Positions 14,890 to 62,416 of a DNA stretch of 64,000 nt are shown in pieces. Within the stretch, counting starts at the first letter, position 1; each line of letters opens with the position of its first letter. A model generated the notes under the pieces. The model worked only from the letters and a program-made list of their open reading frames with translations, searched no databases and was not told the origin of the DNA. Both the position numbers and the translations under genes were made by a program. Source of the DNA: an uncultured Clostridia bacterium (GTDB taxonomy: Bacteria; Bacillota; Clostridia; Christensenellales; UBA1242); the NCBI GenBank assembly GCA_934747805.1, contig CAKVHC010000002.1, forward strand, positions 80,694 to 144,693, in the 5' to 3' direction.

Positions 14890-15669
14890 ATGAAAAATTA
14901 TTTCACCATAGGTTCGTTAGAGATTCATTATTATGGTGTGCTTATGGCATCGGCAATGCTAATTGGCATTTTTTTGGCTTATGGCATCAGCAATCGAAAG
15001 GACATCAAGAGAGAGTCCATCTTCGACCTTGCTCTCATTGTGCTGCCACTTGCCGTGTTGGGTGCACGCACATACTATTGCATCTTCAGTGATTATCATT
15101 ACACATTTGCAGAGTTTTGGCAGATAAACAAAGGCGGTCTTGCCATTTATGGCGGAGTGATAGGCGGTTTTATCGGCGTCGTAATTTTCAGCCTTATCAA
15201 GAAAAAAGATATTCGTTCGGTGTGTGACGTCATCGCTCCGTCACTCATTCTAGGGCAGGCAATCGGTCGTTGGGGCAATTTTATCAACCAAGAGGCCTAC
15301 GGCTATGTAATCAATAACCCAAAATGGCAATTTTTCCCTGCTGGCGTGGAAATCGATGGCGTTTGGCATTTGGCGACTTTCTTCTATGAGTCGATGTGGA
15401 ACTTGGTTGTCTTTGCAATAGTACTTACAATATTTTTCAAAACTAAATCAAAGGGCACGACAACGGCATGGTATCTCATACTTTATGGGCTGGGTCGTAC
15501 CGTCATTGAAGGACTTCGCACCGACAGTCTATACATTGGCAACACAGGCATCCGTGTGTCACAGGCCTTGAGCGTTGTGCTCATTTTGTGCGGAATTGGT
15601 ATGCTTATCTACAATCTTGTCAAAAATAAGAAGACTAAGGTTGTAGAAAGTGACTCGAACAAAGTATAA
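14890..15669 (+). CDS. lgt: Prolipoprotein diacylglyceryl transferase
   Basis: IHYYGVLMASAMLIG..., GQAIGRWGNFINQEAYG, GRTVIEGLRTDSLYIG; 259 aa. Confidence 0.92.
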   Translation: MKNYFTIGSLEIHYYGVLMASAMLIGIFLAYGISNRKDIKRESIFDLALIVLPLAVLGARTYYCIFSDYHYTFAEFWQINKGGLAIYGGVIGGFIGVVIFSLIKKKDIRSVCDVIAPSLILGQAIGRWGNFINQEAYGYVINNPKWQFFPAGVEIDGVWHLATFFYESMWNLVVFAIVLTIFFKTKSKGTTTAWYLILYGLGRTVIEGLRTDSLYIGNTGIRVSQALSVVLILCGIGMLIYNLVKNKKTKVVESDSNKV

Positions 15670-16144
15670 TTTTTATGTCTTATTTACCATTATATTTTGC
15701 ATAAATTTCGCCATAAACTTGGCGATATATTTGATATGGCGACAATCTGAATTGCTCAGATTTGATTATGCGGTGTATCAGATTTTGGCGACGATTTCGG
15801 TTGTGCTTATATTGCGTGGTTTCGCACTAAAAATTGATTCCAGTCTGCTGCTCGGCATATTCTATCTCGGCGTTTCAATAATCGGTTTTTTCAATATCCT
15901 CGCAAGAGTGCCTTATGGCACGTTGTGGCCTTACTATTTTCTGATTTGTGCTTTTGCCAATTTCATCAATAGAATTGTCTTTTTCGACAGACTGCAAGGT
16001 TTTTTTGCCATAATTTGTACATTAATTTTTATAATTTCTTTGTGTTTTAACTTGAAATTATTCGGCTGGTTGTGTTATACTATACTCGTATTGATAACCA
16101 TATCCGCCAGCGTTATGTTTTTGGCATTGCGCACCAAGCGTTAG
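15650..16144 (+). CDS. Polytopic membrane protein, unknown function
   Basis: 164 aa with about 5 hydrophobic helices. GTG start overlaps the lgt 3' end by 20 nt. No family recognised. Confidence 0.5.
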   Translation: MTRTKYNFYVLFTIIFCINFAINLAIYLIWRQSELLRFDYAVYQILATISVVLILRGFALKIDSSLLLGIFYLGVSIIGFFNILARVPYGTLWPYYFLICAFANFINRIVFFDRLQGFFAIICTLIFIISLCFNLKLFGWLCYTILVLITISASVMFLALRTKR

Positions 16145-16156
16145 AAGGAGTTTTTT

Positions 16157-16801
16157 GTGGAGAAGAGTAAACTTTATACAGAAGAGCAAGTGCAAAAACT
16201 GATTAACGAACGTTGTACCGCTTTGTCCAACAAGCTTGACGAACAGCGAGCCACCATTGACCGTCAATCTGCCACCATTTCGCAGATTAGCAGCGAAATC
16301 AATGAGTATAAATCAAAAGATTCCACCATTTCAATGGCAATCATCAGCGCAGTGGAGAAGGCTCAGCAGATTGAATCCACTAGCAAGAAACTCTACCAAA
16401 TGGAGATTGAACGCATACGCCTTTTGTATTTGAAGATGGAAAACGTCTTGAAACAACTCTATGCCAAATATCCAGAGTTGAGAAAGAATAGCGAAGTCAA
16501 CGACATTATGGACAAGGTTGGTTTGGTGCTGAGCAACAACATCTCACCAGTTAGCAGCCAGCCACTTATGAAATACGCCATGAGTAGCACCACTGTCGAA
16601 GACCCGATCAAAAAGTTGTTGAATAAAATCACTACAATATTTGATAAAAACAACGAACAAAAAGTCACCCTCAAGCGTAAAACAATCCCAGAGAGTAGCA
16701 GCGGTTTTGACCTAAAAGAAGCCCTCAACCCAACCGAACAACTCAGCGATATTATGAAGGCATTCAACATTCAGCCTGCCAAAAATAACGGACAAAAATA
16801 A
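16157..16801 (+). CDS. DivIVA-domain-like coiled-coil protein
   Basis: GTG start with SD GAAGGAG. YTEEQVQKLINE...INEYKSKDSTISMAIISAVEKAQQIE resembles the DivIVA/GpsB central region, but the N-terminal F..RGY motif is absent. Confidence 0.4.
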   Translation: MEKSKLYTEEQVQKLINERCTALSNKLDEQRATIDRQSATISQISSEINEYKSKDSTISMAIISAVEKAQQIESTSKKLYQMEIERIRLLYLKMENVLKQLYAKYPELRKNSEVNDIMDKVGLVLSNNISPVSSQPLMKYAMSSTTVEDPIKKLLNKITTIFDKNNEQKVTLKRKTIPESSSGFDLKEALNPTEQLSDIMKAFNIQPAKNNGQK

Positions 16802-16825
16802 CTTGGTTTTCTGCCAAGTTTTTTT
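16802..16825 (+). terminator. Intrinsic terminator
   Basis: cttgg-ttttctg-ccaag followed by T7. Confidence 0.75.
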
Positions 16826-16920
16826 ATTGCTTTTGAGTGAAATTTTTGTAGAATTTTGACTAAATATTTTTCATTTTGTTTGTTGTTTGTTTGATAATTT
16901 TTTTCCTATGTGTTAATCTA

Positions 16921-16960: not shown

Positions 16961-19900
16961 ATGGTTAGTTTGAGAAAAAGAAAACTGTCGAGAATTTCAA
17001 TGTTTTTAGCCTTGAGTTTCTGCTTGGCTTTTGTTTCCGCCTTTTCACTTGTGCCTACCACTCAGGCATCTAGTTTCGATGTATGGGACGGCTCAACAGT
17101 GTCTAGCAGTCTGTCAGGCTCAGGTGCGGAAAGTGAGCCTTATTTGATTCAGTCAGCTTCAGATTTGGCGTATTTCAATGCCAATCCTCAATCTGATGCG
17201 TATTACAAACTAACCACTGACATTGATTGCAATGGAATGTCTTGGACGCCAGTCAATGTTGGGTATTTTGACGGCGGCAATCACACCGTCAAGGGTTTTG
17301 AGCCAGGAGATTATATAGAAGACTCATCAAACAGCGTATACACAGGATTTTTCACGAGTGTTAAATCTTTGTCAAATCTAAAGATAGTCTATAGCACTCC
17401 TGTCACAAGGGACATTGGCTCAGTTTATTCAAACTATCGCTTTGGTGGTGCGACAACCAATGCATATTCAGGGGCTCAGGCTGTTATAGATAACGTGCAT
17501 GTCACCATAGACAATTTAGACATAACCAGTTCGGTCGATGGAAATTTCCTTATAGGTGGCATAATTGCTGAAGCAACAGAACATGCGGCCAACGTCACCA
17601 ATTGCTCAGTATATATGAACGCTAACATCACTCCAAGTGGCAGTATAAATTATATCGGCGGTATTGTTGGACTTTCAGGTGGTTCCGACGTGAGCGATTG
17701 CTATTCTAGAGGAAGCATCACTGTTAATAGCGGTTCACATGTTAGTGGCATTGTTAACAACAATACAACTTCCACAGTAAAACGCTGCTACACAACAATG
17801 AGCATCAATGCCGACACCTCCTACACCAAGCAGGGCTCGGAGATATATGAAGAAAAACCCGATGACTGTCGAGGCCACAGTTTTTATAAATGTCTCGGAC
17901 ATTGTCAAGGACATGCAGAAGTAGTTGGCTCTTGTCATGGTGGCATGCATTATATATGCGATCAACCTGAACTAAATGAAGATGAAACTGTGGCAATGTG
18001 TAAAGATGTCGTGGTTAAATTGTTTTGGCGTTGTGAAGGATGTTACTATAGAGAAGAAGCGAAGGAGGGGGCCAAAGAAGGTGATTTCAAAGATGATATA
18101 GAGCCGCATAACTACGTAAATAATGACGGGACAGAATCTTCTGTTACATGCTCGTCCACAAGTGCAGAATGCTGTAAAATTGGGGTAATTTTACATGGCG
18201 CGGGCGGCAAAGGTACAATAACTGAATTAAAAGCCGATGGCTGTAATAATTGGGGAATTATTAGCGAAGTAAAAAATGTTCCATGTGAATGGAAAGACAA
18301 AGGAAAAGTATTCTGTGATGCAGATATTGCTAAGAACAATTATAAATTTGTTTGTCCGAACTGCGGCTCTAAAATAGCGTCAGTTTATGAAGAAGAAGAT
18401 TGTATAGATAAAACTTGCACTGGCTGGAAGACAGAAACAGTTACGAGATATCACAGCAAAAGTGAGATGAGCAGTTGTACAAATGCTAGCTATCATAGTC
18501 CAGGTTACATTAAAGACGGCAACGATTATACGGCAGCTTTGATCGATGGTTGTGACAATCAAGAACTTGTAGATTATGGTGATTGTGGTAATCAACACTT
18601 GTATTTAGATCCAACAGGCCAGTACGAAATAGTTACTGTTAAGACTGGCTACGTGAATGCAATCTCTGATGTGAGTGAAAACAGAGTTTTCTTCTGTAGT
18701 GATAGCTCGTTGGTGGCAAGTAATACACTTAATGCGCCTGCCAAATATGGCCGCACATTGTCACAAATGAAAGTACGATCGACTTACGATAGTTGGCTTG
18801 ACTTTGATGACTATTGGATAATCGATTCCAGCGTAAACGACGGGCTGCCTGTTCAAAAATCGACGGTAAGTTTGGGCGTTAACACTGCACCAATACTGCT
18901 TGATTTAAACGATAATGAAATTACTGCAAAGGACTCAAAGAGTTGGAGCGAAGTGCGAACCACAGGCGACGGCTATTATCTGAGCCTAGACATTGGTGCA
19001 CCTGAAAACGAAACGGTTTCGTTAAACGTAACGTACGACGACGGAAAATATGAGTTTATCGGCTGGGCAAGAAAGAGTGACAATGGCTATTCTATCCTGT
19101 CTGACAGCACTCCATATTCGTTCGAAATGACCAAAGCTAACGAAGGTGGTTGGTATGCACTATTTAGAGAAGTTAAATATGACTTGACCACCAGCCTATG
19201 TGTTATCAAGGCTGACGGCACAGAAATAACTGATGATTCAGTCTTAAAAGAGTATGTTGACCTAAATGTCACTGTTAATGGCTCGACATATGCTGGGGCA
19301 GAGATTGGCGTACTAGACAAACTCAATTTTAGCTACCAGTACAAAAATCCAAACGTAGATTTCTTCACATTCGACCATTGGAGAGTTAACGGCACTAAGG
19401 TGACGGCGGATATTATCAGCACATTGCTGGACAATGGCGAAATAAGTGACGAAGACCATTATCTCTACACCGAGTTTTACGACAATATAATTGCTATCAG
19501 CAAGGATTCTGGTGTGCTCGACATTGTGGCTGTGTTCAGACCTGTAGAGTATAATTTCGTCGTTCACAACATGGATTCAACCAAAGGAACACTTTCCATA
19601 AGCGGTGATTACAGCGGCGAAAGTGAGATCACTAATGGTGGAACGTTGATAATCAAAAACGTTGACGTGTATTCCACAATTCCTGCCATTAGGGCGTATT
19701 CCGAAACAGCTGCGATTTCAGGTTGGAGCTACACTGACGTAGACGGCAACGAAGTTCAGTTGTTTACTTTTGATCAAATATTCAAAGAAAAAATCTCATC
19801 ACAAACAACACTTGTTGAGCAGATTGTTGACGGCAAAATCGCAGTAGAAAGCCATACCCTCAATTACTATGTTTCGTTCACCAATTTGTACACAATCAAA

Positions 19901-22900
19901 GTCGTAACCGAAGTGGATTTCGGCAGTTACACTGACTATGATCAAGATTGTTTGGCGTTTGTTTATAACTCAGACCACACGCAGCGTGAAACAGAAATGA
20001 TTGTTTTTGACGGACAAGAAATCACTTTCAACTATTACGACATGTCAGGCAGAGGTTATGATTTCTTAGGGTTCTATGACAAGAGCGTGGACAACGGCTT
20101 TGCGACATATTCAAAACTGCCAGCCACTGGTAAAATCACTGACGACACAACGGTTTACGGCGTGTATATGCGTAAGGTGGTCGATTTCAGCATCAAGGTG
20201 CTTGACCAAAGCTCAGACACGATTTGCGATTTCGCAGATTACAACAAAGAAATCTTAGACATTGGCGTTAATGCCTACAACAGTAGCTTTATAACTGGTT
20301 ATGAAATTGTCAACCAAGGTGCGAGCGATGAAAAATGGATTTTCACACTTAAGGATAACCAAATTCAGACCACAAGTTCATACCAAAGATACAATGACTA
20401 CGTGAACGTTGCTCTTTCGTTGCAAAACGAAATGAACAAAATATACAAGGTGTTGGGAATGAAGATTCTCAGCCCTGATGCAACTGTTGAGCAAGTGATT
20501 GCCGCATCGTATACAGCGAGTGCCAGCGGTTCAAACACTGCCAATATGATTATGAATGTGAACAACCTTGAAGGTAAGTGCATTTACATGGTTTACACCA
20601 AACTGGATATGTCGGTGCAACTCGCCGTTGAAACGATTGATCCAGGCAAAACGGCAGTCGACGAGCCTAGCGAAAGCTTAGTGATGCACAACACTGAATT
20701 GGTGGTGGGCAACCGTGTGCAAGACATTAAATACGGTGACACAATCTCATTCAAGAGCAAGGCAAAAACAGGCTTCAAATTCTATGGCTGGAAATTGCCA
20801 GACGGAACAGTTATTCAGCATAGCAATATTTCAATCGACGTCAATGGCAGGGTTACAACACTAGCAGACGACGAAGAATACAATATTTTGACATTGTCTG
20901 CATTCGATTCAACGCTCAAGGGCATCTACACAGCAATGTACTCAAAAATTGCTTACAAAATCGTCGTAGACAACCTTGCAGGCGACAGCATCTTTACTAT
21001 TGCAGGCAGTTCGTCCAAGAATGTTATTGAGCAGTTCTATATTAACCAGATTGCATCAATCACGGCAAATATCGATCCTAGCAAAAACTATTTCGGATTA
21101 AGCTCACAGCCTAACAATGTGGCAGAATACTTCAACTCAGTTCAACTTACAGAAACACTCATTGCTTTGGCTGATGAAAACAACACAATCAAACTGTACC
21201 AAGTGTACGAAGATAATTACTTGCTGACAATCAGCATAACAGATCAGGTTCACGGCAAATTTACTTACAAAGTAAATGGCGAAACACGAAACTATTCAGG
21301 TGCGGTGTATGTGACAAAAAATAGTCAAATCGAGATCAATGTTTCAGTTGACGCACACTATCATTTCACAATAACTGGTGTGAGCGAACAGAACGTTAGC
21401 GAAACTGGTGCAGAATTCACAATGTCTGCAAACACTACAGTGAATATCGACGTGGCTATCGACACTCACAAACTCGAATTTGAGTTTGAAGACGGCTACG
21501 AAGATGGTGCAACGCTCACAGGCGCAGGCACGTACAATTATGGTCAAACTGTTAAAATTGGCGCTATTATTAACAAAGGATTTGATTTCGTAAAGTGGAC
21601 GATTGACAACGGCGCTGGATCTGAAATCAAGTTGGTCAGCGAATTTGATTACACCATAACTGCTGACACAAAATGCAAAATTATTTTGCTGCACCGCTAC
21701 ACCATTACAACGCAGGTTAATGACCCACAGGGCGCAGAGATCACTGGCTCATTCGAACTCAACGAAAAGGACAGCGCACAAATCACGGTGACATTGCGTG
21801 CAGGATATAGCCTACAAGGTTGGCAAATCGATGGACAAGACACTGACTTGACTGGCACAACTATCACTGTAATTGGTGAGAAAACATGCACATATACGGC
21901 AGTAATTTCTCAAGACAAATATTACATTAACGTAGACGCAATCGCCGCAGTTTATGGTGAATCTGGCTACACTATCAGTGCTCCACAAAACAATGAATAT
22001 TACACCTACAACGAGCAAGTGGAAATCAAACTCATTACTCCAAAATTCCTACTCAGACTCAACAAGTTGAGTGCAAACAACGTAGTGCTGGCAATAAACA
22101 GTGCGGTGACTAACGAAAGTCAGTTGACAGTCAGTTTAACTGCTGGCAACAAGGAATATTTTGCTGGGGACACAACTGTTATTCGCATTGATTACACTCG
22201 CATTTATGCATTAAATATCATCAAATCTGAAACAGAAGCAGAAGATAGCGTGCTGAATGAAATGTATTATATCAGCAAGCAAACTACTGGTGACACGACT
22301 ACATATCTCATATTGGACGGCACAGTAGTAAATATTGATACAAAAGACAATTCAAAATACATTTTCAGCAAATATGAAATCAATGTAGACGGCAATTTTG
22401 AGACGCTCACGACTGAACGTGAAACTCTGTTCACCGTCGCTGCCGACAGCGAAATCAGAGTAGTGTATCTCGGCAAAGCCTATGATATCGACTTTGTCTA
22501 TCACGTTTTGGACGAAAATGGCGCAGAAATGACCGATTTCAATAAAAAATGGATTTCTAACCGCACTTATTCATTCAAAAATGCAGACGGCGAAGAAACA
22601 CTCGAATTCAGATATGGCAGTGAAATCACTATCACGCCAGCAATTTTACCATATGGTTTGGCGGTCGATCACTTCACATTTGACGGCAACGATTCAGCGT
22701 CTAGCATCACAGTTTTGATGAACAAAGAAGGCAACATTACTGTTGACGTGTACTATATTCGTGTGGCAATCAGCGTGTCAGTTTACAATAGTGAAAATGG
22801 CACAATAACGAAGATTGCAGATAGCGATATAGACAACGGCAACGCAATCTACACTGTAACAGGCGAAGGCCAGTATTATATCGGCGACAGTGTAGTAATT

Positions 22901-25900
22901 AAACTCGCCGCAGTTCAAGCATATAAGGACTATTTCCTAAACAAAGGCTGGTCAATAGGCGACAACAAACTTGATTTTGTCAACTATGCAGCCACATTTA
23001 ACGGAAACACTTACAGAGTAGAAAACAACAACCGCACAATTAAATTCACATTGGTGCCATTCACCAGCGAAACAAGTTTTGTGCTTGCTCCAGAATTAGA
23101 TTTCACCGAATTCAACATTAATGTTGCAATTTATCTAAACCGTGCAGCCTACACTCCAGACGACGTTCCAATGGCCACTGCTTCGATATTCGTAAACGGT
23201 GTCGACACAGAGTCAATGGCGGCAAAAGTTCATTTCAAAGACAGGGTTGAAATTAAGGTAACTTACAACCCAACCAATAGTAACGATTATGTAAATGTGT
23301 ACAAGTTTGACGAAATGACTTGTGTTGGCTACAGCATAGAAAACAATGTGACCATTGGCGACGACCAAAGCGTGACATACACAATTCCAAGCTTTGTCAA
23401 ATCTAACAAGGGCAATTATCGTTTCAAATACGTAAGTAGCACATCGTCATTCTCGCTCACTGCAACGCCTGAAAAGGCTGTGCAAGACGCAGCTTTGTCC
23501 CAGAACAAAACTGAATATGCTCAAGGCGATTCCGTCATCATTAAGGTAGACCAAAACAAGATTAATGCAGGTTTCCGCTTCTTAGGCTGGTATTACAATG
23601 ACGAGCTGAAGAGCAACAACCTAGAGTACAAGTTTGATTATAACGTAAGTTTCTACGGCAACACATTTGAAGCCAGATTTGAAGCATTGGATTATACGTT
23701 TGAATTCGTTCCAACTGTAAATGGCAGCGTAACTAACGCCAATGATATTGATTTGACAGGCACAAGAACATATAATGCACTTAATGGTTTCACTGATGCC
23801 ACTGACCAAAATTCAAAACAAATAATTTTCACACCAGACTCAGCAAATGGTTATTGCATTGATAATGTTGTGTTCTACGCATCAAATGACCAAGAAAACA
23901 CTCACTCAGTTTACGCCATGCTCAACATTGACGATAGCGGCGTAGCTGTATGGAATTTCGACTTTGCATACGTGAGCAATTTGATTTCTCAAGCAAACAT
24001 TGCAGACACTACATTTGTAATAAAAGCCACATTTAAGCACATTGTTTTGAATGTGAACGTGCAAGTTTTCTGCGACGACATTGCCACTACGCAAGACGAC
24101 CTGATTTCATATTCAATCGGGGGTTATGATGAAACGAATATTAAGAATTTTGAAATTGAGTATGGCGAAAGTTTCGTTTTAACAATCACATCACTCAAAG
24201 ACGGATACAAACTTATCAGTTCAAACGCTATCTTGTTTGACGGAGTAAGTCAAAATATTGAGTCATCTAGCACTACTATTCAAGTTAAACAAAACGGCGT
24301 TTTGGAAATCTATATCGAGCGTGTGGAATACACAATCAACCTAAGTTATTTCAAAAAATTCGGCGAAGTAAAAATTGTTGGTAAAGCAAAAGTAGGCGAA
24401 ACTATTGCTTTTGTAAAGACATCTGTCAACACAGGCTATGACTTTACAGGGTTCTACAGAGGGTCAAGCATTGATGAAAACAAACTTTTGTCCACTGAAG
24501 ACCGTTATGAATTCACATTTGAAATTGAATACGACGCCGACGGCAACATTATAACGTCGTACAATTATTACGCAGGTTTTGTACCAAAATCTATTACGTT
24601 TATAGTTAAGTCGTACGACAACAAGGGCAATCTTTTGGAAGATATTGCACCAATCACCTACAAGGTTGGCGGCACAGAATATCCACTTAACAACGCTACA
24701 TTCAAATATGGACAAGAACTAGAACTCGTCGTTAGAAATTTTGAAGGCTATACATTTGAGAGCTTTGCCGATGACAGCGTTATCAAGGGCACAAGAGTTT
24801 CTATCAACGATGAAATGTTAAGGTTTGATGGGGATAAGATAGTTAAATTGATTTACTCAGCCAACAAACACACTATCACCATATACCACAACATGTTGGG
24901 CGCAACCGACAAAAATGGTGAATCACTAAATATCAGCCCAGCATACATGCGTTATTCAACTGGCAACGAGTCAAGAAGCTTTGGCAATATTAAGCGTGAA
25001 GTGGTGGTGACTTACAACTCAAAGATTGGCCTGACAATCAGTGCCATTTCGAGCGATTGGACATTTGTAGGTTTGTACGAAATAATCACTGTGGATGATC
25101 AACAAGTAACAAACACATTGATCGAAGGCTCGAACGCAACAGGATATTCTCCAAGCTATATTGTAAAAGATTACGATGCAGAGATTATCGCATATTTCAC
25201 TCCAAAGATTGAGTTCAAAGATTTCGATGACGTGAACGAGAGAACATATTCATTCGTATACACTTCAAACCCAGTCGGAATTCCAGAAACAAAAGTTAGC
25301 ATGTTGGCAGACAACCCATTGAGAGAGCTAATGAGCATAACATACAACGGCTCAGTCAATGCACCAACAAACGCTGGACAATACACTCTTGCAATTAAGT
25401 TTGATTCTACTCGAATTCCGGGATTGAAGAACTATCCAAGTCCAACCGCCACATTAAGAATTACGCCAATAGAACTGAAATTCGCTTATGACGGCAAGAT
25501 TAGTAAAGTATATGACGGCACATCTTCAATTCTTGTTTACTCAGGGCTTAAGATAGCTGACGGAATATTGCGTGAAAACGACGTAGATTGGTTGACCATT
25601 TCTACATCAGACGCCAATTTCAGTGCAAACTTTGTTCTTGCAGATAAAGGTGTGTATTACAACCGTATCGATGTCGCTGACAATTATAGTGTTCGATTTG
25701 AGAATCTGAAACTGGTCAGCAAAGTTGGCGATTATTCGTCGAAAGTAAACAACTATGTCTTCCCTGACAATTCAAACACAATCATTTTCAACAATATTGG
25801 CAGCATCACCAAGCGTGAAATTGACATGCAAAACGTTCTTGTTGTGAACAAAATTTACGACGGAACTACTGACATCAAGTTTAGAGAAGGCTATTCGTTA

Positions 25901-26680
25901 AATAATGCAGTCTTGAATATTAACCAAATAGTTAAGATTGGAGATTTAATCGATGACGTAGGACTAGACTATGAAAATATTTCCCTTAGTTACTCTACCA
26001 AAGAAGTTGGCGGCAATGTTGGTGTGATCTTTAAGTTGATTAATAATAGCACTGGTCTTATAGGTGCAAAAGCAACTAACTACACACTCAGATTTCCAAC
26101 TTTGACAGGCTATACAATTCATCCAAATCAAGTATCAATTACAGGTGATTATGGGACAATTACAATAGTTGATATAGACAATAATTTGTATCTGCCATTG
26201 GATTTGCAAATCAAAGTAACGCCTATTCGAGAAACAAGCGAAAGCTACGCTTCAATCTATGGAATAATTGAACCAGAACTTTCAAACAACAAGAACTTTG
26301 GCATAGGATATAATATTGCACTATATTCAAATGGTTTTGAGTATAAGATTATTAATAGCGCAGTTAAGGTAATCATTACGCCACCTCAAGATATGAGCAA
26401 TAGTCGAATTGACAATATTTTGAAAGTCATTACTACTCAAGACAACACGTCAGTAGAGCATATGACTATAACCGCAGATTTGCAAACTGTTTCATTCCGC
26501 ACTAGTGAACTCGGAACGTTTGTCCTAGTGGCAACACGTAATCCAGTACCTTTGTGGTTAATAATTGTAATAAGCGTTATCGTCGCACTGGCAATACTAT
26601 TCTTGTGCTTGTACTTATTCGTAATCGTACCTAGAAAACGTGAAAAAGCGTACGCAAACTTTAGCAAACTTGAACCATAA
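16961..26680 (+). CDS. Giant (3,239 aa) membrane-anchored surface repeat protein, adhesin-like
   Basis: Signal peptide (aa 1-36, ...TTQA/SS). N-terminal GLUG/beta-helix-like domain (PYLIQSASDL, FDGGNHTV, IGGIVGLSGGSDVSDCYSRGSI). Cys-rich insert at aa 303-542. At least 14 Listeria-Bacteroides-type repeat units ([YF]xFxGW: YEFIGW, FKFYGW, FDFVKW, YSLQGW, FRFLGW...). C-terminal YDGT 'MBG-like' units (KVYDGTSSI, KIYDGTTDI). Single C-terminal TM at 26552-26632, then RKREKAYANFSKLEP. No LPXTG. Confidence 0.9.
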   Translation: MVSLRKRKLSRISMFLALSFCLAFVSAFSLVPTTQASSFDVWDGSTVSSSLSGSGAESEPYLIQSASDLAYFNANPQSDAYYKLTTDIDCNGMSWTPVNVGYFDGGNHTVKGFEPGDYIEDSSNSVYTGFFTSVKSLSNLKIVYSTPVTRDIGSVYSNYRFGGATTNAYSGAQAVIDNVHVTIDNLDITSSVDGNFLIGGIIAEATEHAANVTNCSVYMNANITPSGSINYIGGIVGLSGGSDVSDCYSRGSITVNSGSHVSGIVNNNTTSTVKRCYTTMSINADTSYTKQGSEIYEEKPDDCRGHSFYKCLGHCQGHAEVVGSCHGGMHYICDQPELNEDETVAMCKDVVVKLFWRCEGCYYREEAKEGAKEGDFKDDIEPHNYVNNDGTESSVTCSSTSAECCKIGVILHGAGGKGTITELKADGCNNWGIISEVKNVPCEWKDKGKVFCDADIAKNNYKFVCPNCGSKIASVYEEEDCIDKTCTGWKTETVTRYHSKSEMSSCTNASYHSPGYIKDGNDYTAALIDGCDNQELVDYGDCGNQHLYLDPTGQYEIVTVKTGYVNAISDVSENRVFFCSDSSLVASNTLNAPAKYGRTLSQMKVRSTYDSWLDFDDYWIIDSSVNDGLPVQKSTVSLGVNTAPILLDLNDNEITAKDSKSWSEVRTTGDGYYLSLDIGAPENETVSLNVTYDDGKYEFIGWARKSDNGYSILSDSTPYSFEMTKANEGGWYALFREVKYDLTTSLCVIKADGTEITDDSVLKEYVDLNVTVNGSTYAGAEIGVLDKLNFSYQYKNPNVDFFTFDHWRVNGTKVTADIISTLLDNGEISDEDHYLYTEFYDNIIAISKDSGVLDIVAVFRPVEYNFVVHNMDSTKGTLSISGDYSGESEITNGGTLIIKNVDVYSTIPAIRAYSETAAISGWSYTDVDGNEVQLFTFDQIFKEKISSQTTLVEQIVDGKIAVESHTLNYYVSFTNLYTIKVVTEVDFGSYTDYDQDCLAFVYNSDHTQRETEMIVFDGQEITFNYYDMSGRGYDFLGFYDKSVDNGFATYSKLPATGKITDDTTVYGVYMRKVVDFSIKVLDQSSDTICDFADYNKEILDIGVNAYNSSFITGYEIVNQGASDEKWIFTLKDNQIQTTSSYQRYNDYVNVALSLQNEMNKIYKVLGMKILSPDATVEQVIAASYTASASGSNTANMIMNVNNLEGKCIYMVYTKLDMSVQLAVETIDPGKTAVDEPSESLVMHNTELVVGNRVQDIKYGDTISFKSKAKTGFKFYGWKLPDGTVIQHSNISIDVNGRVTTLADDEEYNILTLSAFDSTLKGIYTAMYSKIAYKIVVDNLAGDSIFTIAGSSSKNVIEQFYINQIASITANIDPSKNYFGLSSQPNNVAEYFNSVQLTETLIALADENNTIKLYQVYEDNYLLTISITDQVHGKFTYKVNGETRNYSGAVYVTKNSQIEINVSVDAHYHFTITGVSEQNVSETGAEFTMSANTTVNIDVAIDTHKLEFEFEDGYEDGATLTGAGTYNYGQTVKIGAIINKGFDFVKWTIDNGAGSEIKLVSEFDYTITADTKCKIILLHRYTITTQVNDPQGAEITGSFELNEKDSAQITVTLRAGYSLQGWQIDGQDTDLTGTTITVIGEKTCTYTAVISQDKYYINVDAIAAVYGESGYTISAPQNNEYYTYNEQVEIKLITPKFLLRLNKLSANNVVLAINSAVTNESQLTVSLTAGNKEYFAGDTTVIRIDYTRIYALNIIKSETEAEDSVLNEMYYISKQTTGDTTTYLILDGTVVNIDTKDNSKYIFSKYEINVDGNFETLTTERETLFTVAADSEIRVVYLGKAYDIDFVYHVLDENGAEMTDFNKKWISNRTYSFKNADGEETLEFRYGSEITITPAILPYGLAVDHFTFDGNDSASSITVLMNKEGNITVDVYYIRVAISVSVYNSENGTITKIADSDIDNGNAIYTVTGEGQYYIGDSVVIKLAAVQAYKDYFLNKGWSIGDNKLDFVNYAATFNGNTYRVENNNRTIKFTLVPFTSETSFVLAPELDFTEFNINVAIYLNRAAYTPDDVPMATASIFVNGVDTESMAAKVHFKDRVEIKVTYNPTNSNDYVNVYKFDEMTCVGYSIENNVTIGDDQSVTYTIPSFVKSNKGNYRFKYVSSTSSFSLTATPEKAVQDAALSQNKTEYAQGDSVIIKVDQNKINAGFRFLGWYYNDELKSNNLEYKFDYNVSFYGNTFEARFEALDYTFEFVPTVNGSVTNANDIDLTGTRTYNALNGFTDATDQNSKQIIFTPDSANGYCIDNVVFYASNDQENTHSVYAMLNIDDSGVAVWNFDFAYVSNLISQANIADTTFVIKATFKHIVLNVNVQVFCDDIATTQDDLISYSIGGYDETNIKNFEIEYGESFVLTITSLKDGYKLISSNAILFDGVSQNIESSSTTIQVKQNGVLEIYIERVEYTINLSYFKKFGEVKIVGKAKVGETIAFVKTSVNTGYDFTGFYRGSSIDENKLLSTEDRYEFTFEIEYDADGNIITSYNYYAGFVPKSITFIVKSYDNKGNLLEDIAPITYKVGGTEYPLNNATFKYGQELELVVRNFEGYTFESFADDSVIKGTRVSINDEMLRFDGDKIVKLIYSANKHTITIYHNMLGATDKNGESLNISPAYMRYSTGNESRSFGNIKREVVVTYNSKIGLTISAISSDWTFVGLYEIITVDDQQVTNTLIEGSNATGYSPSYIVKDYDAEIIAYFTPKIEFKDFDDVNERTYSFVYTSNPVGIPETKVSMLADNPLRELMSITYNGSVNAPTNAGQYTLAIKFDSTRIPGLKNYPSPTATLRITPIELKFAYDGKISKVYDGTSSILVYSGLKIADGILRENDVDWLTISTSDANFSANFVLADKGVYYNRIDVADNYSVRFENLKLVSKVGDYSSKVNNYVFPDNSNTIIFNNIGSITKREIDMQNVLVVNKIYDGTTDIKFREGYSLNNAVLNINQIVKIGDLIDDVGLDYENISLSYSTKEVGGNVGVIFKLINNSTGLIGAKATNYTLRFPTLTGYTIHPNQVSITGDYGTITIVDIDNNLYLPLDLQIKVTPIRETSESYASIYGIIEPELSNNKNFGIGYNIALYSNGFEYKIINSAVKVIITPPQDMSNSRIDNILKVITTQDNTSVEHMTITADLQTVSFRTSELGTFVLVATRNPVPLWLIIVISVIVALAILFLCLYLFVIVPRKREKAYANFSKLEP

Positions 26681-26704: not shown

Positions 26705-27622
26705 ATGACAGATTATGATATAGTAGTTGTAGGAGGGGGCCCTGCAGGGCTTTCCTCCGCAATCTACGCCTTGCGTGCTGGCAAGCGTGTTGCACTTATT
26801 GAAAAAGGTTTTTTGGGCGGTCAGGTGGCTTTCACTGCCAATATCAAAAACTATGTTGGTTTTGAAAAGATTTCAGGTATGGAACTTGCGGATAAAATGG
26901 CAAACCACGCACGTGAATATGGGCTGGTTAACATCACGGGTGAAGTGCTTGGCATTGAGAAGCATCGTAATTATTTCACAATTACACACACCAATGGCTC
27001 AGTTAGTTGCAAACGCATTATCTTGTGTATGGGAGTAACAGCCAAATATTTGAATGTTGTTGGAGAACGTGAATTCACAGGCAAAGGCGTCAGTTATTGT
27101 GCTACATGCGACGGCAATCTTTTCAAGAATTTGGACGTGGCAGTCGTGGGCGGTGGCGACACTGCATTTGAGGACATTTTATATCTCTCGTCGTTGTGCC
27201 ACAAGGTTTATGGCATTCACCGAAGCAAACAATATCGTGCAAATGACAAATTGCAAAAGGAAGTCAATAGACTAGTTAAAGAAGGCAAGGTTGAACTAAT
27301 CACCGATAGCGTGGTCAAGGAAATTAAGGGAGATAAACACCTCACCGAACTTGAAATCTTCAACACATTAAATCAGCAAGCATCCACACTTAAGGTTCGT
27401 GGGCTTTTCGTCGCAATAGGTGCTGAGCCACGCACAGACTTCACTCGTGGGCTGGTCGCCACAGACGAGCATGGATATATTAAAGTCAACGCTCGCAAGC
27501 AAACCAGTGTCAAAGGCATTTATGCCGCTGGCGATATCACCAATACAAACCTGCGACAAATCGTCACTGCATGCGCAGATGGTGCGATAGCTGGCAGCGA
27601 ATCTGCAAAATCAATACATTAA
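26705..27622 (+). CDS. trxB: Thioredoxin-disulfide reductase
   Basis: DIVVVGGGPAGLSSAIYALRAG, redox CATCDG, second GGGDTA nucleotide site; 305 aa. Only 24 nt and no hairpin separate it from the giant gene. Confidence 0.93.
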   Translation: MTDYDIVVVGGGPAGLSSAIYALRAGKRVALIEKGFLGGQVAFTANIKNYVGFEKISGMELADKMANHAREYGLVNITGEVLGIEKHRNYFTITHTNGSVSCKRIILCMGVTAKYLNVVGEREFTGKGVSYCATCDGNLFKNLDVAVVGGGDTAFEDILYLSSLCHKVYGIHRSKQYRANDKLQKEVNRLVKEGKVELITDSVVKEIKGDKHLTELEIFNTLNQQASTLKVRGLFVAIGAEPRTDFTRGLVATDEHGYIKVNARKQTSVKGIYAAGDITNTNLRQIVTACADGAIAGSESAKSIH

Positions 27623-27624
27623 AA

Positions 27625-27645
27625 AACACAGCAATGTGTTTTTTA
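27625..27645 (+). terminator. Intrinsic terminator after trxB
   Basis: aacaca-gcaa-tgtgtt followed by TTTT. Confidence 0.7.
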
Positions 27646-27646
27646 T

Positions 27647-27675
27647 TTGTCTATTGGCATGGATTGTGTTATAAT
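27647..27675 (+). promoter_or_regulatory. ung promoter placed for a leaderless transcript
   Basis: TTGTCT (27647-27652), 17 nt, TGtTATAAT (-10 at 27670-27675), 6 nt, ATG at 27682. No SD. Confidence 0.6.
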
Positions 27676-27681
27676 GCAAGT

Positions 27682-28353
27682 ATGAGTAATTATGTTTTGA
27701 ATGAAGATTGGCAAAAAGTTTTGACGCCAGCTTTTACGCAGGAATTTAAACACAAACTGTTTGGCTTTGTAAACGAGCAGTATGCTTCGCACCGCTGTTT
27801 TCCTGCCAAAGAAAACGTCTTCCATGCACTCAATTTGACTCCAGTGGACAAAGTGAAGGTTGTCATAATCGGACAAGATCCATATCACACACCTTTGCAA
27901 GCGGACGGCTTGGCTTTCTCGTGTGCAGATGGCAAGGCTCAACCATCTTTGCAAAACATTTTTAAAGAACTATCCAACGACTTAGGTATTCCGGCACCCA
28001 CCAAAACCACACTTTACGGTTGGGCAGAGCAAGGCGTTCTGCTGTTAAACAGCGTTCTCACTGTGCAAATGGGTATGGCAGGTTCTCACGCAGGACACGG
28101 CTGGGAGGAAGTAACCAAAACCATTATTAAATATTTAGCAAGCCTTGAGCGTCCAATAGTTTTCATACTTTGGGGCGGATATGCTCGAAAGTACGCTAGC
28201 TTGATTGACAAAAATAAGCATCTGGTGATCGAATCGGCACACCCAAGTCCACTTTCTGCATACAACGGCTTCTTTGGTAGCAAACCATTCAGCCGTTGCA
28301 ACGATTATCTGGTGAAATATGGTTTGTCACCAATAAAATGGGAGAATAATTAG
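27682..28353 (+). CDS. ung: Uracil-DNA glycosylase (family 1)
   Basis: GQDPYHTPLQADGLAFS, LLLNSVLTV, ESAHPSPLSA. Start set at MSNYVLNEDW. The track's upstream extension overlaps trxB and the promoter. Confidence 0.93.
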   Translation: MSNYVLNEDWQKVLTPAFTQEFKHKLFGFVNEQYASHRCFPAKENVFHALNLTPVDKVKVVIIGQDPYHTPLQADGLAFSCADGKAQPSLQNIFKELSNDLGIPAPTKTTLYGWAEQGVLLLNSVLTVQMGMAGSHAGHGWEEVTKTIIKYLASLERPIVFILWGGYARKYASLIDKNKHLVIESAHPSPLSAYNGFFGSKPFSRCNDYLVKYGLSPIKWENN

Positions 28354-53149: not shown

Positions 53150-53232
53150 GGGGGAGTGGCGGAATTGGCATACGCGCACGTTTGAGGGGCGTGTGGGCAA
53201 CCTTGTGAGTTCAAATCTCATCTTCCCCACCA
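53150..53232 (+). tRNA. tRNA-Leu (anticodon GAG), type II with long variable arm, encoded CCA
   Basis: Acceptor gggggag/cttcccc (one G:U). D-arm gcg-gaattggcata-cgc. Anticodon stem cacgt/gcgtg with loop ttGAGgg. Variable arm tgggcaaccttg. T-arm gtgag-ttcaaat-ctcat. Discriminator A plus CCA. Confidence 0.9.
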
Positions 53233-61583: not shown

Positions 61584-62390
61584 ATGTCAAGTTTATTAAA
61601 TTTTTTCGAAAATAACTGGTACTGGATTGTTGGCGCAGTAGTATTGATGATAATTGTTTTGCTCATTATGCTTGTTGTGCTTGACAAGAAAGACATTAGA
61701 TTGCAAGATGCAATCGAAGAGAAGCGTGTTCAAAAGGAAGCAGATAAGAACGCCGCTAAAGCAGAAGTAATCGAGAACGAAACAGTCGCTGCAACTGAAG
61801 AAACAGTTGAAGAGAAACCTGTTGAAAAGAAAGCCCCTGCTAAAAAATCTGCAAAAAAGCCTGCAGCTAAAAAGCCAGCAGCAAAGAAAACAACAGCTAA
61901 GAAAGCAGAACCAGCAGTAGTAGCACCTGTTGCCACTGTTGAAACCGCTCCAAAAGCAGAGCCAAAGAAAGCTCCTGCTAAGAAATCTGCTGCTAAAAAA
62001 TCTGCTAAGAAACCTGCAGCAAAAAAGGCAGCTCCAAAGGCAGAAGTTAAAGACGAACCTGTACTCGCAGAAGACGTTGTAAAGGCAATTGCTGAACCAG
62101 AAGTTAAGAAGGTTGAAGCAAAGAAACCTGCAACTAAGAAAACACCTGCTAAGAAATCTGCAAAAAAGACTACAGCCAAAAAGCCAGCCGCTAAAAAAGC
62201 AGAACCTAAAACTGCACCAAAAGCAGAAGTGAAGACTCCAGTTGTAAAGGCTGCTCCTAAGGCAGAAGCTAAGAAACCTGCAGCTAAGAAGCCAGCTACT
62301 AAACCTGCAGCTAAAAAGCCAGCAGCAAAGAAAACAACTGCTAAAAAACCTGCAACTAAGAAAACACCTGCTAAAAAATCTGCAAAATAA
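61584..62390 (+). CDS. Single-pass membrane protein with a long AKKP/AKKPAAKK-repeat polycationic (histone-H1-like) tail
   Basis: N-terminal TM WYWIVGAVVLMIIVLLIMLVVL followed by KKD (positive-inside rule suggests a cytoplasmic tail). About 200 aa of (P/A)AKK repeats. SD AAGGAG. Confidence 0.75.
   Translation: MSSLLNFFENNWYWIVGAVVLMIIVLLIMLVVLDKKDIRLQDAIEEKRVQKEADKNAAKAEVIENETVAATEETVEEKPVEKKAPAKKSAKKPAAKKPAAKKTTAKKAEPAVVAPVATVETAPKAEPKKAPAKKSAAKKSAKKPAAKKAAPKAEVKDEPVLAEDVVKAIAEPEVKKVEAKKPATKKTPAKKSAKKTTAKKPAAKKAEPKTAPKAEVKTPVVKAAPKAEAKKPAAKKPATKPAAKKPAAKKTTAKKPATKKTPAKKSAK
61860..61900 (+). repeat. 41-nt intragenic direct repeat (second copy at 62304-62344, 1 mismatch)
   Basis: cctgcagctaaaaagccagcagcaaagaaaacaac[a/t]gctaa, read directly in both places. 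Confidence 0.9.
62125..62166 (+). repeat. 42-nt intragenic direct repeat (second copy at 62346-62387, 1 mismatch)
   Basis: aaacctgcaactaagaaaacacctgctaa[g/a]aaatctgcaaaa, read directly in both places. Confidence 0.9.
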
Positions 62391-62416
62391 TTAGCAAAAA
62401 ATTTATTTTAGAATAT

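What the first reader, a model, noticed from the sequence alone, without database searches (positions are those of the whole stretch)
17867..18586. Unrecognised Cys/His-rich module of about 240 aa inserted inside the N-terminal beta-helix-like domain of the giant surface protein
The N-terminal domain opens with a pattern I associate with GLUG/beta-helix adhesin heads: EPYLIQSASDL, YKLTTDIDCNG..W.P, FDGGNHTV, then GG[IV][IV][AG]...xC[SY] rungs. It closes with GRTLSQMK...YDSWLDFDDYWIIDSSVNDGLPV. Between the rung VKRCYTTMSINAD (aa ~273-285) and GYVNAISDVSENRVFFCSDSS (aa ~563-583) lies a segment, aa 303-542, with 21 cysteines by my count and many histidines. It includes paired motifs CLGHCQGH, SCHGGMHYIC, CEGCYY, CPNCGS and CIDKTC. 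The other ~3,000 aa are Cys-poor. Composition also looks different: I count 18 and 22 G+C in lines 18301-18360 and 18361-18420, against 28 in 19561-19620. That would fit a module acquired separately. I cannot place it in any family. On the surface of a likely anaerobe, such a cluster suggests a metal-binding (Zn/Fe) or disulfide-knotted ligand-binding insert.
Basis: partly seen in the sequence, partly recalled or inferred. Interest (0 to 1): 0.7.

Follow-up and report, generated by a model that had tools for sequence, protein, structure and literature searches.

The report
Orphan Cys/His-rich domain in adhesin head
A giant surface protein of an uncultured gut Clostridia bacterium has a roughly 285-residue domain wedged into its beta-helix head; the domain matches no known family, keeps 17 cysteines and 7 histidines fixed while the rest varies, and is most likely a metal-stabilised binding knob, though this is untested.

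Summary
Residues 303-542 of the 3,239-aa ORF (16961-26680, +) hold 21 of its 37 cysteines (p about 7e-15) and 9 of its 35 histidines.

- **Placement.** The segment lies between the GLUG-type beta-helix rungs (confident AF2 model; best fold matches are IgA1-protease beta-helices) and a C-terminal cap. In a homologous head, P0007, that cap follows the rungs directly.
- **Family.** Nothing matches in Pfam, NCBIfam, PHROGs or PDB. An exhaustive phmmer search of 1.84 billion representatives found only the protein itself and one ortholog.
- **Conservation.** All recovered orthologs carry the insert at the same site: five assemblies, three species-level lineages. Within it, Cys is 81% and His 80% invariant, against 20% for other insert residues and 49% for the rest of the protein. 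Histidine conserved as strongly as cysteine favours metal (probably Zn) sites over disulfides alone.
- **Composition.** Total GC is ordinary. GC3 is the lowest in the gene (0.283 vs 0.424, z about -5 to -6).
- **Strain divergence.** Against a same-species strain, divergence jumps to 8.2% vs 1.45% exactly over aa 296-580. A second same-species pair shows no such excess, so this looks like one recombination import, not hypermutation.

AF2 could not fold the insert (pLDDT 27.5), so its function is inferred. Moderately interesting.

The parts
16961..26680 (+). Giant surface-protein gene, 3,239 aa: signal peptide, beta-helix head with the insert, long stalk of InlB-B-repeat-like (Flg_new_2), MBG and YDG domains, and a C-terminal membrane anchor.
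   Evidence: ORF list and translation. Pfam Flg_new_2 1.3e-13, YDG 8.3e-8; MBG_3 5.1e-4 is below its cut-off, 20.5 vs 25 bits. Syntenic orthologs in L001-L005.
16802..16826 (+). Terminator-like hairpin (cttgg/ccaag plus a T-run) right after the upstream ORF. It suggests the giant gene is a separate transcription unit.
   Evidence: Read directly from the sequence. Inference only.
16961..17068 (+). Sec-type signal peptide, aa 1-36: basic N-region, hydrophobic core, TQA|SS.
   Evidence: Sequence read. 100% identical in L002. Inference from sequence features.
17072..17845 (+). N-cap and rungs of the GLUG-type right-handed beta-helix head, aa 38-295.
   Evidence: AF2 head model: pLDDT about 80-95 to aa ~230-240, falling to 55-73 by aa ~287, all-beta. 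Foldseek top hits are S. pneumoniae and G. haemolysans IgA1 proteases, prob 0.98-1.0. BLASTP to GLUG-type heads P0002, P0003 and P0010 at 29-33% identity, ending at aa 282-300. Pfam GLUG scores 18.6 bits, just below its 20.5 cut-off.
17846..18700 (+). The inserted module as an evolutionary unit, aa 296-580. Its borders come from the strain-level divergence patch and coincide with the GC3 dip.
   Evidence: Maximum chi-square patch, window vs L002: 17846-18701, 8.2% vs 1.45% nt divergence. GC3 falls over codons ~301-565. Exhaustive phmmer hits only self and ortholog P0022.
17867..18598 (+). Cys/His core of the module, aa 303-546. Invariant in four orthologs: 17 Cys (303, 311, 315, 325, 333, 347, 358, 361, 397, 428, 465, 468, 481, 486, 506, 531, 542) and 7 His (306, 314, 318, 330, 498, 512, 546).
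   Evidence: Alignment A3 and column table. Invariance is 81% for Cys and 80% for His vs 20% for other insert residues.
17867..17959 (+). Dense Cys/His cluster, aa 303-333: CxGH-x4-CxGH-CxGH-x6-C-x4-H-x2-C. That is 5 Cys and 4 His in 31 residues, all invariant.
17999..18043 (+). C347-x10-C358-x2-C361: the first CxxC knuckle, invariant.
18284..18418 (+). Zinc-ribbon-like stretch, aa 442-486: C442, C452, C465-P-N-C468-G, C481-x4-C486.
   Evidence: The only (sub-threshold) profile hits of the insert fall here and are all zinc ribbons: Pfam HVO_2753_ZBP 15.1 bits (cut-off 33.2), NCBIfam PRK14890 14.8 bits, PDB Kti11/Dph3 CSL zinc finger E about 0.8. A lead, not a membership.
18452..18598 (+). C-terminal conserved block of the module, aa 498-546: YHS...C506...H512..GY...IDGC531DNQ...C542G..H546.
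18758..18856 (+). C-terminal cap of the beta-helix head, aa 600-632: SQMKVRSTYDSWLDFDDYWIIDSSVNDGLPV.
   Evidence: Aligns to P0007 aa 429-465 (49% identity, E = 7e-10). There the cap directly ends a Cys/His-poor head and is followed by a second head.
26552..26629 (+). C-terminal transmembrane anchor, aa 3198-3223, followed by a basic cytoplasmic tail (PRKREK...). No LPXTG motif.
   Evidence: Sequence read.

Best explanation
The segment is a genuine, self-contained domain of about 285 aa (aa 296-580, Cys/His core 303-546). It is nested between the last rungs and the C-terminal cap of the GLUG-type beta-helix head of a Sec-exported, membrane-anchored, adhesin-like giant protein. The host is an uncultured gut Clostridia lineage.

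Shown: the domain exists, it lies inside the head module, it is confined to this small clade, and it has a fixed skeleton of 17 Cys and 7 His under fast-changing other positions.

Inferred: the skeleton ligates structural metal ions, most likely Zn. Twenty-four ligands would fill up to six tetrahedral sites, including CxGH knuckles and a CPxCG zinc-ribbon-like element. Some disulfides may contribute. The metal-pinned fold projects sideways from the head as a knob, and its variable loops form a binding and/or antigenic surface. Its low GC3 and a strain-level recombination patch with the same borders show that it evolves, and can be exchanged between strains, as a unit.
For: - **Cys/His clustering.** p about 7e-15.
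- **Same insertion site in every ortholog.** Window/L005, L002, L003, L004 and L001 all carry it there.
- **Skeleton conservation.** Cys 17/21 and His 8/10 invariant across three species-level lineages, vs 42/213 other insert residues (Fisher 2.5e-8 and 1.2e-4) and 49% invariance outside the insert.
- **Metal rather than disulfide alone.** His is conserved as strongly as Cys, which disulfides do not explain. Cys counts in alignment A3 (the insert plus about 20 flanking residues) are odd: 21, 23, 19, 19.
- **Zinc-ribbon hints.** The only weak profile hits are zinc-ribbon families at the CPNCG knuckle.
- **Anaerobic host.** PFOR and SpoIVA are in the window, and the ortholog record is titled 'Clostridia bacterium HGM11372'.
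- **Head context.** The AF2 head model is a confident beta-helix, pLDDT about 80-95 over roughly aa 38-240 and declining towards the insert. Its best PDB fold matches are IgA1-protease beta-helices. N-cap and C-cap both align to head 1 of P0007, which has no such insert.
- **Unit behaviour.** GC3 0.283 vs 0.424, z -5.3 to -6.0. The same dip appears in L002 and L003. The divergence patch spans aa 296-580 at 8.2% vs 1.45%, with 43 nonsynonymous and 15 synonymous codon differences vs 46 and 70 elsewhere (p = 2e-5).
- **Literature.** GLUG/Flg_new membrane proteins of gut microbes are regarded as putative adhesins (PMC9723798).
Against: - No structure. AF2 gave pLDDT 27.5 for the insert alone and below 50 within the head model. 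The fold, the ligand geometry and even whether the two ends of the insert meet are unknown.
- No zinc-finger or other metal-binding family reaches significance.
- The protein is extracellular, where disulfides are the usual role of conserved cysteines.
- Only five sequences from three lineages exist, so 'invariant' rests on a shallow sample.
- The variable-loop idea is weakened by the second same-species pair. L003 vs L004 shows 1 nonsynonymous and 0 synonymous differences in aa 301-540.
- No ligand is known, and adhesion itself is only inferred from the domain architecture.
Confidence: 0.5

Rival explanations
1. A purely disulfide-knotted extracellular domain with no metal. The conserved cysteines pair into about 8-9 disulfides that rigidify a small binding domain.
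For: The protein is exported: signal peptide and C-terminal anchor. There are 17-18 conserved Cys, and L001 has 18 in the core. Cys-rich extracellular domains are usually disulfide-bonded (general knowledge).
Against: Seven His are as invariant as the Cys and interleave with them at C-x2-H spacing. The invariant Cys number 17, and totals in three of the four orthologs are odd. The host is an anaerobic gut Clostridia. Such organisms commonly lack extracytoplasmic disulfide-forming systems; this is general knowledge and was not tested on this genome.
Confidence: 0.25
2. A recently acquired foreign module. The segment was horizontally inserted into the gene from a lower-GC donor, which would explain its deviant codon usage.
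For: GC3 is 0.283 vs 0.424. Cys codons are TGT:TGC 16:5 in the insert vs 4:12 in the rest. C-ending two-fold codons are 0.30 vs 0.55. The divergence patch has sharp borders.
Against: The module is at the same position in all orthologs of three lineages whose synonymous sites are saturated. Insertion into the gene therefore predates their split. No homolog exists anywhere else that could serve as a donor: 1.84 billion representatives, GTDB genomes, JGI metagenomes and IMG/VR were searched. The dip also appears in L003, where it extends over much of the head. What remains possible is an ancient acquisition, or allele exchange among close relatives.
Confidence: 0.1
3. A targeted hypervariation system acts on the module: a diversity-generating retroelement or cassette-based antigenic variation.
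For: Window vs L002: dN is 8.5 times higher in the module and dN/dS is 0.68 vs 0.19. Differences are spread evenly over codon positions, 28/22/24.
Against: No template repeat or silent cassette was found in the window or in L001-L004. The substitution spectrum is not adenine-specific. dS is also raised, as expected for an imported divergent allele. The second same-species pair, L003 vs L004, has almost no differences in the module.
Confidence: 0.03
4. An enzymatic or redox module: a metalloprotease-like, Hint/intein-like, heme-binding or Fe-S domain carried by the adhesin.
For: The closest structural relatives of the head are IgA1 proteases, which combine a GLUG beta-helix with a catalytic domain. 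Conserved Cys and His could be catalytic.
Against: The insert has no HExxH and no CxxCH heme motif; the two CxxC are CEGCY and CPNCG. There are no Pfam hits to peptidase, Hint/intein or cytochrome families even at E <= 1. There are no PDB sequence hits. Twenty-four conserved Cys/His are far more than a catalytic site needs.
Confidence: 0.07

Closest known systems
GLUG-motif beta-helix N-terminal domain of streptococcal-type IgA1 proteases (PDB 6XJA, 7UVK, 6XJB) and GLUG-motif adhesin-like proteins of gut microbes
   Same: The host domain, aa 38-~295 plus the cap 600-632, is of this kind. The AF2 model is a confident beta-helix and these proteases are its best fold matches, prob 0.98-1.0. It has GG[IV][IV]G...C[YS] rungs and a DPYLI N-cap. 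Homologs P0005, P0009, P0010, P0012 and P0017 carry PF07581.
   Different: None of the homologs has anything between the rungs and the cap that resembles the Cys/His module. The window's own Pfam GLUG score is just under the cut-off. There is no protease domain.
Zinc ribbons and zinc knuckles (for example the HVO_2753-type small zinc-finger proteins and the Kti11/Dph3 CSL zinc finger)
   Same: The CPNCG knuckle, flanked by further Cys at spacings typical of zinc ribbons (aa 442-486). A second CxxC at 358-361. His interleaved with Cys.
   Different: All scores are sub-threshold: 15.1 bits vs a 33.2 cut-off, and E about 0.8-0.9. Those proteins are small and cytoplasmic. Here the element is one part of a 285-aa extracellular domain with about 24 candidate ligands.
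Globular domains inserted into beta-helix stems of surface or tail proteins, such as the side domains of autotransporter passengers (Hbp, Pet) and the 'fin' of phage tailspikes. This comparison is from general knowledge.
   Same: The architectural principle: a beta-helix scaffold interrupted by a separately folding domain that adds function. Beta-helix passengers and tailspikes appear among the weaker fold hits (4om9, CBA120 and P22 tailspikes).
   Different: There is no sequence or fold relation of the insert itself. Those inserts are not Cys/His-rich. Whether the module here folds back so that the helix continues is not shown.
Cys-rich, CxxC-bearing variable surface proteins that bind zinc, such as the Giardia VSPs. 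This analogy is from memory.
   Same: An extracellular Cys-rich scaffold with a conserved Cys pattern and a variable remainder, living in an anaerobic gut niche.
   Different: No homology. Only two CxxC motifs here. This is a single-copy domain inside one gene, and there is no evidence of a switching repertoire.

Membership tests
GLUG-motif beta-helix head (Pfam PF07581) - host domain only | Match to the GLUG profile at or above Pfam's gathering score | tested here: inconclusive
   18.6 bits, E = 0.0025, two stretches, against a cut-off of 20.5 bits.
GLUG-motif beta-helix head (Pfam PF07581) - host domain only | Right-handed beta-helix fold like the IgA1-protease N-terminal domain, and homology to proteins carrying PF07581 | tested here: met
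   AF2 pLDDT about 80-95 over roughly aa 38-240, declining towards the insert. Foldseek top hits 6xja, 7uvk, 6xjb and 7jgj, prob 0.98-1.0, although E is only 5e-3 to 9e-2 because over half of the model is unstructured. Homologs P0005, P0009, P0010, P0012 and P0017 carry PF07581.
Zinc ribbon / small zinc-finger families (PF07754 HVO_2753_ZBP, NF011481, CSL zinc finger) | Profile match above the curated threshold | tested here: not met
   15.1 bits vs 33.2; 14.8 bits vs 61; PDB Kti11 E about 0.8.
Zinc ribbon / small zinc-finger families | Two Cys knuckles (CxxC ... CxxC) that bind one Zn | not testable with these tools
   CxxC at 358-361 and 465-468, plus C481-x4-C486, are invariant. Metal binding needs chemistry or a structure.
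Diversity-generating retroelement target (variable region) | A template repeat near the variable region, and adenine-specific substitutions | tested here: not met
   No repeat of the region in the 64-kb window and no tblastn copy in the window or L001-L004. The substitution spectrum is mixed: G>A 15, A>G 11, A>T 9, T>C 9 and others. A reverse transcriptase was not searched for exhaustively.
Intein / bacterial intein-like (Hint) domain | Hint-fold profile match and terminal splicing motifs: N-terminal Cys/Ser, C-terminal His-Asn | tested here: not met
   No Hint or intein Pfam hit at E <= 1. There is no HN[CST] at the C-terminal border in any ortholog.
c-type (multi)heme cytochrome domain | CxxCH heme-attachment motifs | tested here: not met
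   The two CxxC motifs read CEGCY and CPNCG, and the position after the second Cys is never His in any ortholog.
Zinc metalloprotease (as in IgA1 proteases, M26) | HExxH motif and a peptidase profile match | tested here: not met
   No HExxH in aa 286-600. No peptidase family in Pfam or NCBIfam.

The most novel reading that the evidence does not exclude
The module founds a previously undescribed fold family: an extracellular multi-zinc domain with about six Cys/His sites, built partly from CxGH knuckles. It is nested in a beta-helix adhesin head and swapped between strains of gut Clostridia as an allelic cassette to change binding specificity or escape host or phage recognition.
Probability: 0.3. 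Interest if true: 0.6.

Novelty: new variant of a known kind. Interest (0 to 1): 0.45.

Why it matters
Giant adhesin-like proteins are among the least understood gene products of gut anaerobes. Their heads presumably decide what the cell sticks to.

Here a well-known scaffold, the GLUG beta-helix, carries an orphan domain seen in only three lineages among about 15 billion predicted proteins. Its conservation pattern points to several metal sites outside the cell. If confirmed, that would add a new extracellular metal-stabilised domain type and a concrete handle on the ligand specificity of this protein family, since the domain can be expressed, its metal measured and its binding screened.

The practical reach is limited. 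The organism is uncultured, the clade is tiny, and no phenotype is attached.

Tried and rejected
- **Family searches on the insert found nothing significant.** Pfam, NCBIfam and PHROGs. PDB sequence searches with the profile and with sub-segments. The midkine hit (E = 0.19) is chance. The T-antigen pilin hit reaches 3e-4 only because the chain is a tandem fusion; the single chain scores 0.64, so it is also chance.
- **Word-indexed homolog searches.** The insert alone and the four-sequence alignment both gave nothing.
- **Exhaustive phmmer.** Only self, ortholog P0022 and P0023. P0023, a Bacteroidota-like repeat protein, was rejected by profile comparison (prob 0.5%, E = 0.12). It aligns to the least conserved part of the insert.
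- **Collection scans with the insert profile.** GTDB genomes, JGI metagenomes and IMG/VR all gave nothing.
- **AF2 on the insert alone.** pLDDT 27.5, unusable, so no fold search was run on it. In the head model the insert and the cap also stay below 50.
- **Internal repeats in the insert.** None beyond shuffles.
- **DGR or cassette variation.** Rejected.
- **Steady diversifying selection on the insert.** I first inferred this from window vs L002. The L003 vs L004 control made me drop it.
- **Total-GC anomaly.** Rejected; only third positions deviate.
- **Literature.** Nothing on this domain. The only context found was GLUG/Flg_new proteins as putative gut adhesins.
- **PDB sequence searches with the beta-helix part and with the cap.** No hits.
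- **L003 in the structure alignment.** The structure tool turned it away, so the head model used 16 rows without it.
Full report
**Observation**

The window has one very long ORF, 16961-26680 on the + strand, encoding 3,239 aa. Residues 303-542 (nt 17867-18586) contain 21 Cys and 9 His. The remaining 2,999 residues contain 16 Cys and 26 His. The chance of 21 or more of 37 Cys falling in one 240-aa segment is 7e-15, or about 2e-11 after correcting for all window positions. No ORF of 80 aa or more overlaps the segment on the other strand.

**Context**

The protein starts with a Sec-type signal peptide. It ends in a hydrophobic helix (aa 3198-3223) followed by a basic tail, with no LPXTG motif. 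Downstream of the head, Pfam finds InlB-B-repeat-like Flg_new_2 (1.3e-13) and YDG (8.3e-8). An MBG_3 match (5.1e-4) is below its cut-off.

Neighbouring genes are housekeeping ones: lgt, a thioredoxin-reductase-like flavoprotein, UDG, hflX, mcsB, clpC, obg, gyrB/gyrA-type topoisomerase subunits, PFOR and spoIVA. The region is therefore chromosomal DNA of a spore-forming anaerobic Firmicute. The one ortholog found in the GTDB genome collection is titled 'Clostridia bacterium HGM11372'. The other copies come from gut-type metagenome assemblies. A hairpin plus T-run at 16802-16826 separates the gene from the upstream ORF.

**The head is a GLUG-type beta-helix and the segment interrupts it**

- AF2 on aa 38-640 with 16 aligned sequences gives pLDDT about 80-95 to roughly aa 240 and 55-73 from there to about aa 287, all beta-strand.
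- Foldseek's best PDB matches are the beta-helices of S. pneumoniae and G. haemolysans IgA1 proteases, prob 0.98-1.0. E-values are weak because more than half of the model is unstructured.
- Remote homologs, several carrying Pfam GLUG, align at 29-33% identity from the N-cap (SGSG..[DE]PYLI) to aa 282-300 and then stop.
- The window's own Pfam GLUG score is just below the cut-off, 18.6 vs 20.5 bits.
- The closing motif MKVRSTYDSWLDFDDYWIIDSSVNDGLPV (aa 603-639) aligns at 49% identity (E = 7e-10) with P0007 aa 429-465. In P0007 this motif ends a first head whose N-cap also aligns with the window (P0007 60-199). That head has no Cys/His-rich stretch and is followed immediately by a second head.
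- N-cap to cap is about 390 aa in P0007 and about 580 aa here.

'Inserted inside the head module' is therefore supported at the level of sequence architecture. It is not shown structurally, because the cap and the insert have pLDDT below 50.

**The module matches nothing known and is confined to a tiny clade**

- Pfam, NCBIfam and PHROGs give no hit better than E about 0.02.
- PDB sequence searches with a profile and with sub-segments give nothing significant.
- An exhaustive phmmer pass over 1.84 billion cluster representatives of about 15 billion proteins returned only the protein itself, one ortholog (P0022, 41% identity over the whole insert) and a weak repeat-protein hit (P0023). Profile comparison rejected P0023.
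- Scans of GTDB genomes, JGI metagenomes and IMG/VR with the insert profile found nothing.
- Using the conserved stalk as bait recovered L003 and L004.

Five assemblies representing three species-level lineages are now in hand: window = L005; L002, same species; L003 and L004, same species; and L001.

**Conservation pattern**

All orthologs carry the module at the same position. In the four-way alignment, 17 Cys and 7 His are invariant.

Invariance across the three lineages:

| Residue class | Invariant |
|---|---|
| Cys in the insert | 17/21 (81%) |
| His in the insert | 8/10 (80%) |
| Other residues in the insert | 42/213 (20%) |
| Non-Cys/His residues outside the insert | 49% |

Fisher tests of Cys and His against the other insert residues give 2.5e-8 and 1.2e-4. 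Non-Cys/His positions are invariant less often inside the insert than outside it (Fisher 1e-16). Cys and His outside the insert are not specially conserved, at 46-47%.

The module is therefore a fixed Cys/His skeleton under an otherwise fast-changing sequence. It has no internal repeats.

**Metal or disulfide?**

This step is inference. Four points favour metal:

- The histidines are as invariant as the cysteines and are interleaved with them: CxGH-x4-CxGH-CxGH-x6-C-x4-H-x2-C at aa 303-333.
- There are two invariant CxxC knuckles. One is a CPxCG, at which the only sub-threshold profile hits fall, and those hits are all zinc ribbons.
- Cys counts in the four aligned segments (the insert plus about 20 flanking residues) are odd: 21, 23, 19, 19.
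- The host is an anaerobe.

Seventeen Cys plus seven His would fill six tetrahedral sites. Against this, the location is extracellular, no metal-binding family is significant, and there is no structure. I put metal sites, possibly alongside some disulfides, at about 0.55 and a purely disulfide-knotted domain at about 0.25.

**Composition**

Total GC of the module is unremarkable, 0.393 vs 0.404. Third positions are not:

- GC3 is 0.283 vs 0.424, the lowest of all 240-codon windows in the gene.
- After conditioning on amino acids, z = -6.0 against the rest of the gene and -5.3 against 19 other ORFs of the window. The rest of the giant gene matches those ORFs (z = 0.4).
- The deficit lies mainly in C-ending two-fold codons: 0.30 vs 0.55. 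Cys codons are TGT:TGC 16:5 vs 4:12 (p = 0.003).

The dip recurs in L002 (z = -5.5) and in L003 (0.347 vs 0.491, where much of the head is also low). It is not significant in the lower-GC L001 (0.295 vs 0.344). The module's C-ending fraction is about 0.3 in all three lineages whatever the background. I cannot explain this fully. Weaker codon selection on a fast-turnover segment, or repeated allele import from lower-GC relatives, are both possible.

**Strain-level divergence**

Window vs L002 (98% aa identity elsewhere) shows a sharply bounded patch at 17846-18701, aa 296-580:

- Nucleotide divergence is 8.2% inside the patch vs 1.45% outside.
- dN is 0.068 vs 0.008, dS is 0.10 vs 0.043, and dN/dS is 0.68 vs 0.19.
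- Codon differences are 43 nonsynonymous and 15 synonymous inside vs 46 and 70 elsewhere (p = 2e-5).
- Differences are spread evenly over codon positions.

I first read this as diversifying selection. The control pair L003 vs L004 has similar overall identity (98.3%) but only one nonsynonymous and no synonymous change in aa 301-540. The patch in the first pair is therefore best explained by a single recombination import of a diverged allele whose borders coincide with the module.

It is not a DGR. There is no template repeat or silent copy, and there is no adenine bias.

Three independent signals delimit the same unit: the Cys/His skeleton at 303-546, the GC3 dip at about 301-565, and the divergence patch at 296-580.

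The reading as an unrecognised inserted module is supported, and its stated refutation conditions are not met: no described family matches, Cys spacing is conserved, and codon usage is non-uniform. 'Acquired separately' holds only in the weaker sense that the module is an evolutionary unit of its own. It is ancestral to all known orthologs, so it is not a recent insertion. Metal binding is favoured but unproven, and ligand binding is inferred from the architecture. GLUG/Flg_new membrane proteins of gut microbes are regarded as putative adhesins (PMC9723798).

**Novelty and interest**

The host scaffold and the principle of decorating a beta-helix with an extra domain are known. The domain itself is an orphan with an unusual Cys/His pattern. 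I rate it a new variant of a known kind, with interest 0.45. Metal analysis, a structure and a deeper ortholog sample would decide the open questions.

Noticed in passing
window 17846-18701 vs L002 5752-6606: A sharply bounded mosaic patch between two strains of the same species (8.2% vs 1.45% nt divergence). Its borders coincide with the Cys/His module. A second same-species pair (L003 vs L004) shows no such patch, so this looks like a single recombination import.
   Followed up: yes
window 15650-16144 and 16157-16801: Two small ORFs with no family match lie directly upstream of the giant gene: a 164-aa multi-pass membrane protein and a 214-aa coiled-coil-looking protein. Both are syntenic in L001, L002, L003 and L005. 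A link to export or anchoring of the giant protein is possible.
   Followed up: partly
window 61584-62390 (repeats 61813-62395): A 268-aa ORF with tandem 15-nt and ~138-nt periodic repeats encodes a Lys/Ala/Pro/Glu-rich protein. It has a sub-threshold match to histone-H1-like HC2 (31.6 bits vs a cut-off of 40) and sits just downstream of spoIVA.
   Followed up: no
P0007 (metagenomic protein, 678 aa): It carries two GLUG-type heads in tandem. The first ends with a cap motif nearly identical to the window's (STYADWTDFDGHWIIDPNINNGYPML). This is useful as an uninterrupted reference head.
   Followed up: partly
window 27571-28353: The mechanical 260-aa UDG-family ORF overlaps the preceding trxB-like gene by 52 nt. 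The orthologous gene is called at 239 aa in L002 and L003, so the true start is probably an internal start codon, about 21 codons downstream if the gene has the same length here.
   Followed up: no
L003 8333-10100 (head of the ortholog): In the HGM11372 ortholog, GC3 is depressed over much of the beta-helix head (0.23-0.45) as well as the insert, against about 0.5 in the stalk. The low-GC3 zone therefore tracks the fast-evolving head more broadly in that lineage.
   Followed up: partly
L002 insert (aa 357 and 539 of its protein): The sister strain has gained two extra Cys next to existing ones (WCCQGC, and YCNDCG creating a new CxxC). The window has a vicinal CC (404-405) that is absent from the other species. 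The number of Cys around the fixed skeleton is plastic.
   Followed up: no
window 53150-53229: A single tRNA gene. It is the only Rfam match in the 64-kb window.
   Followed up: no
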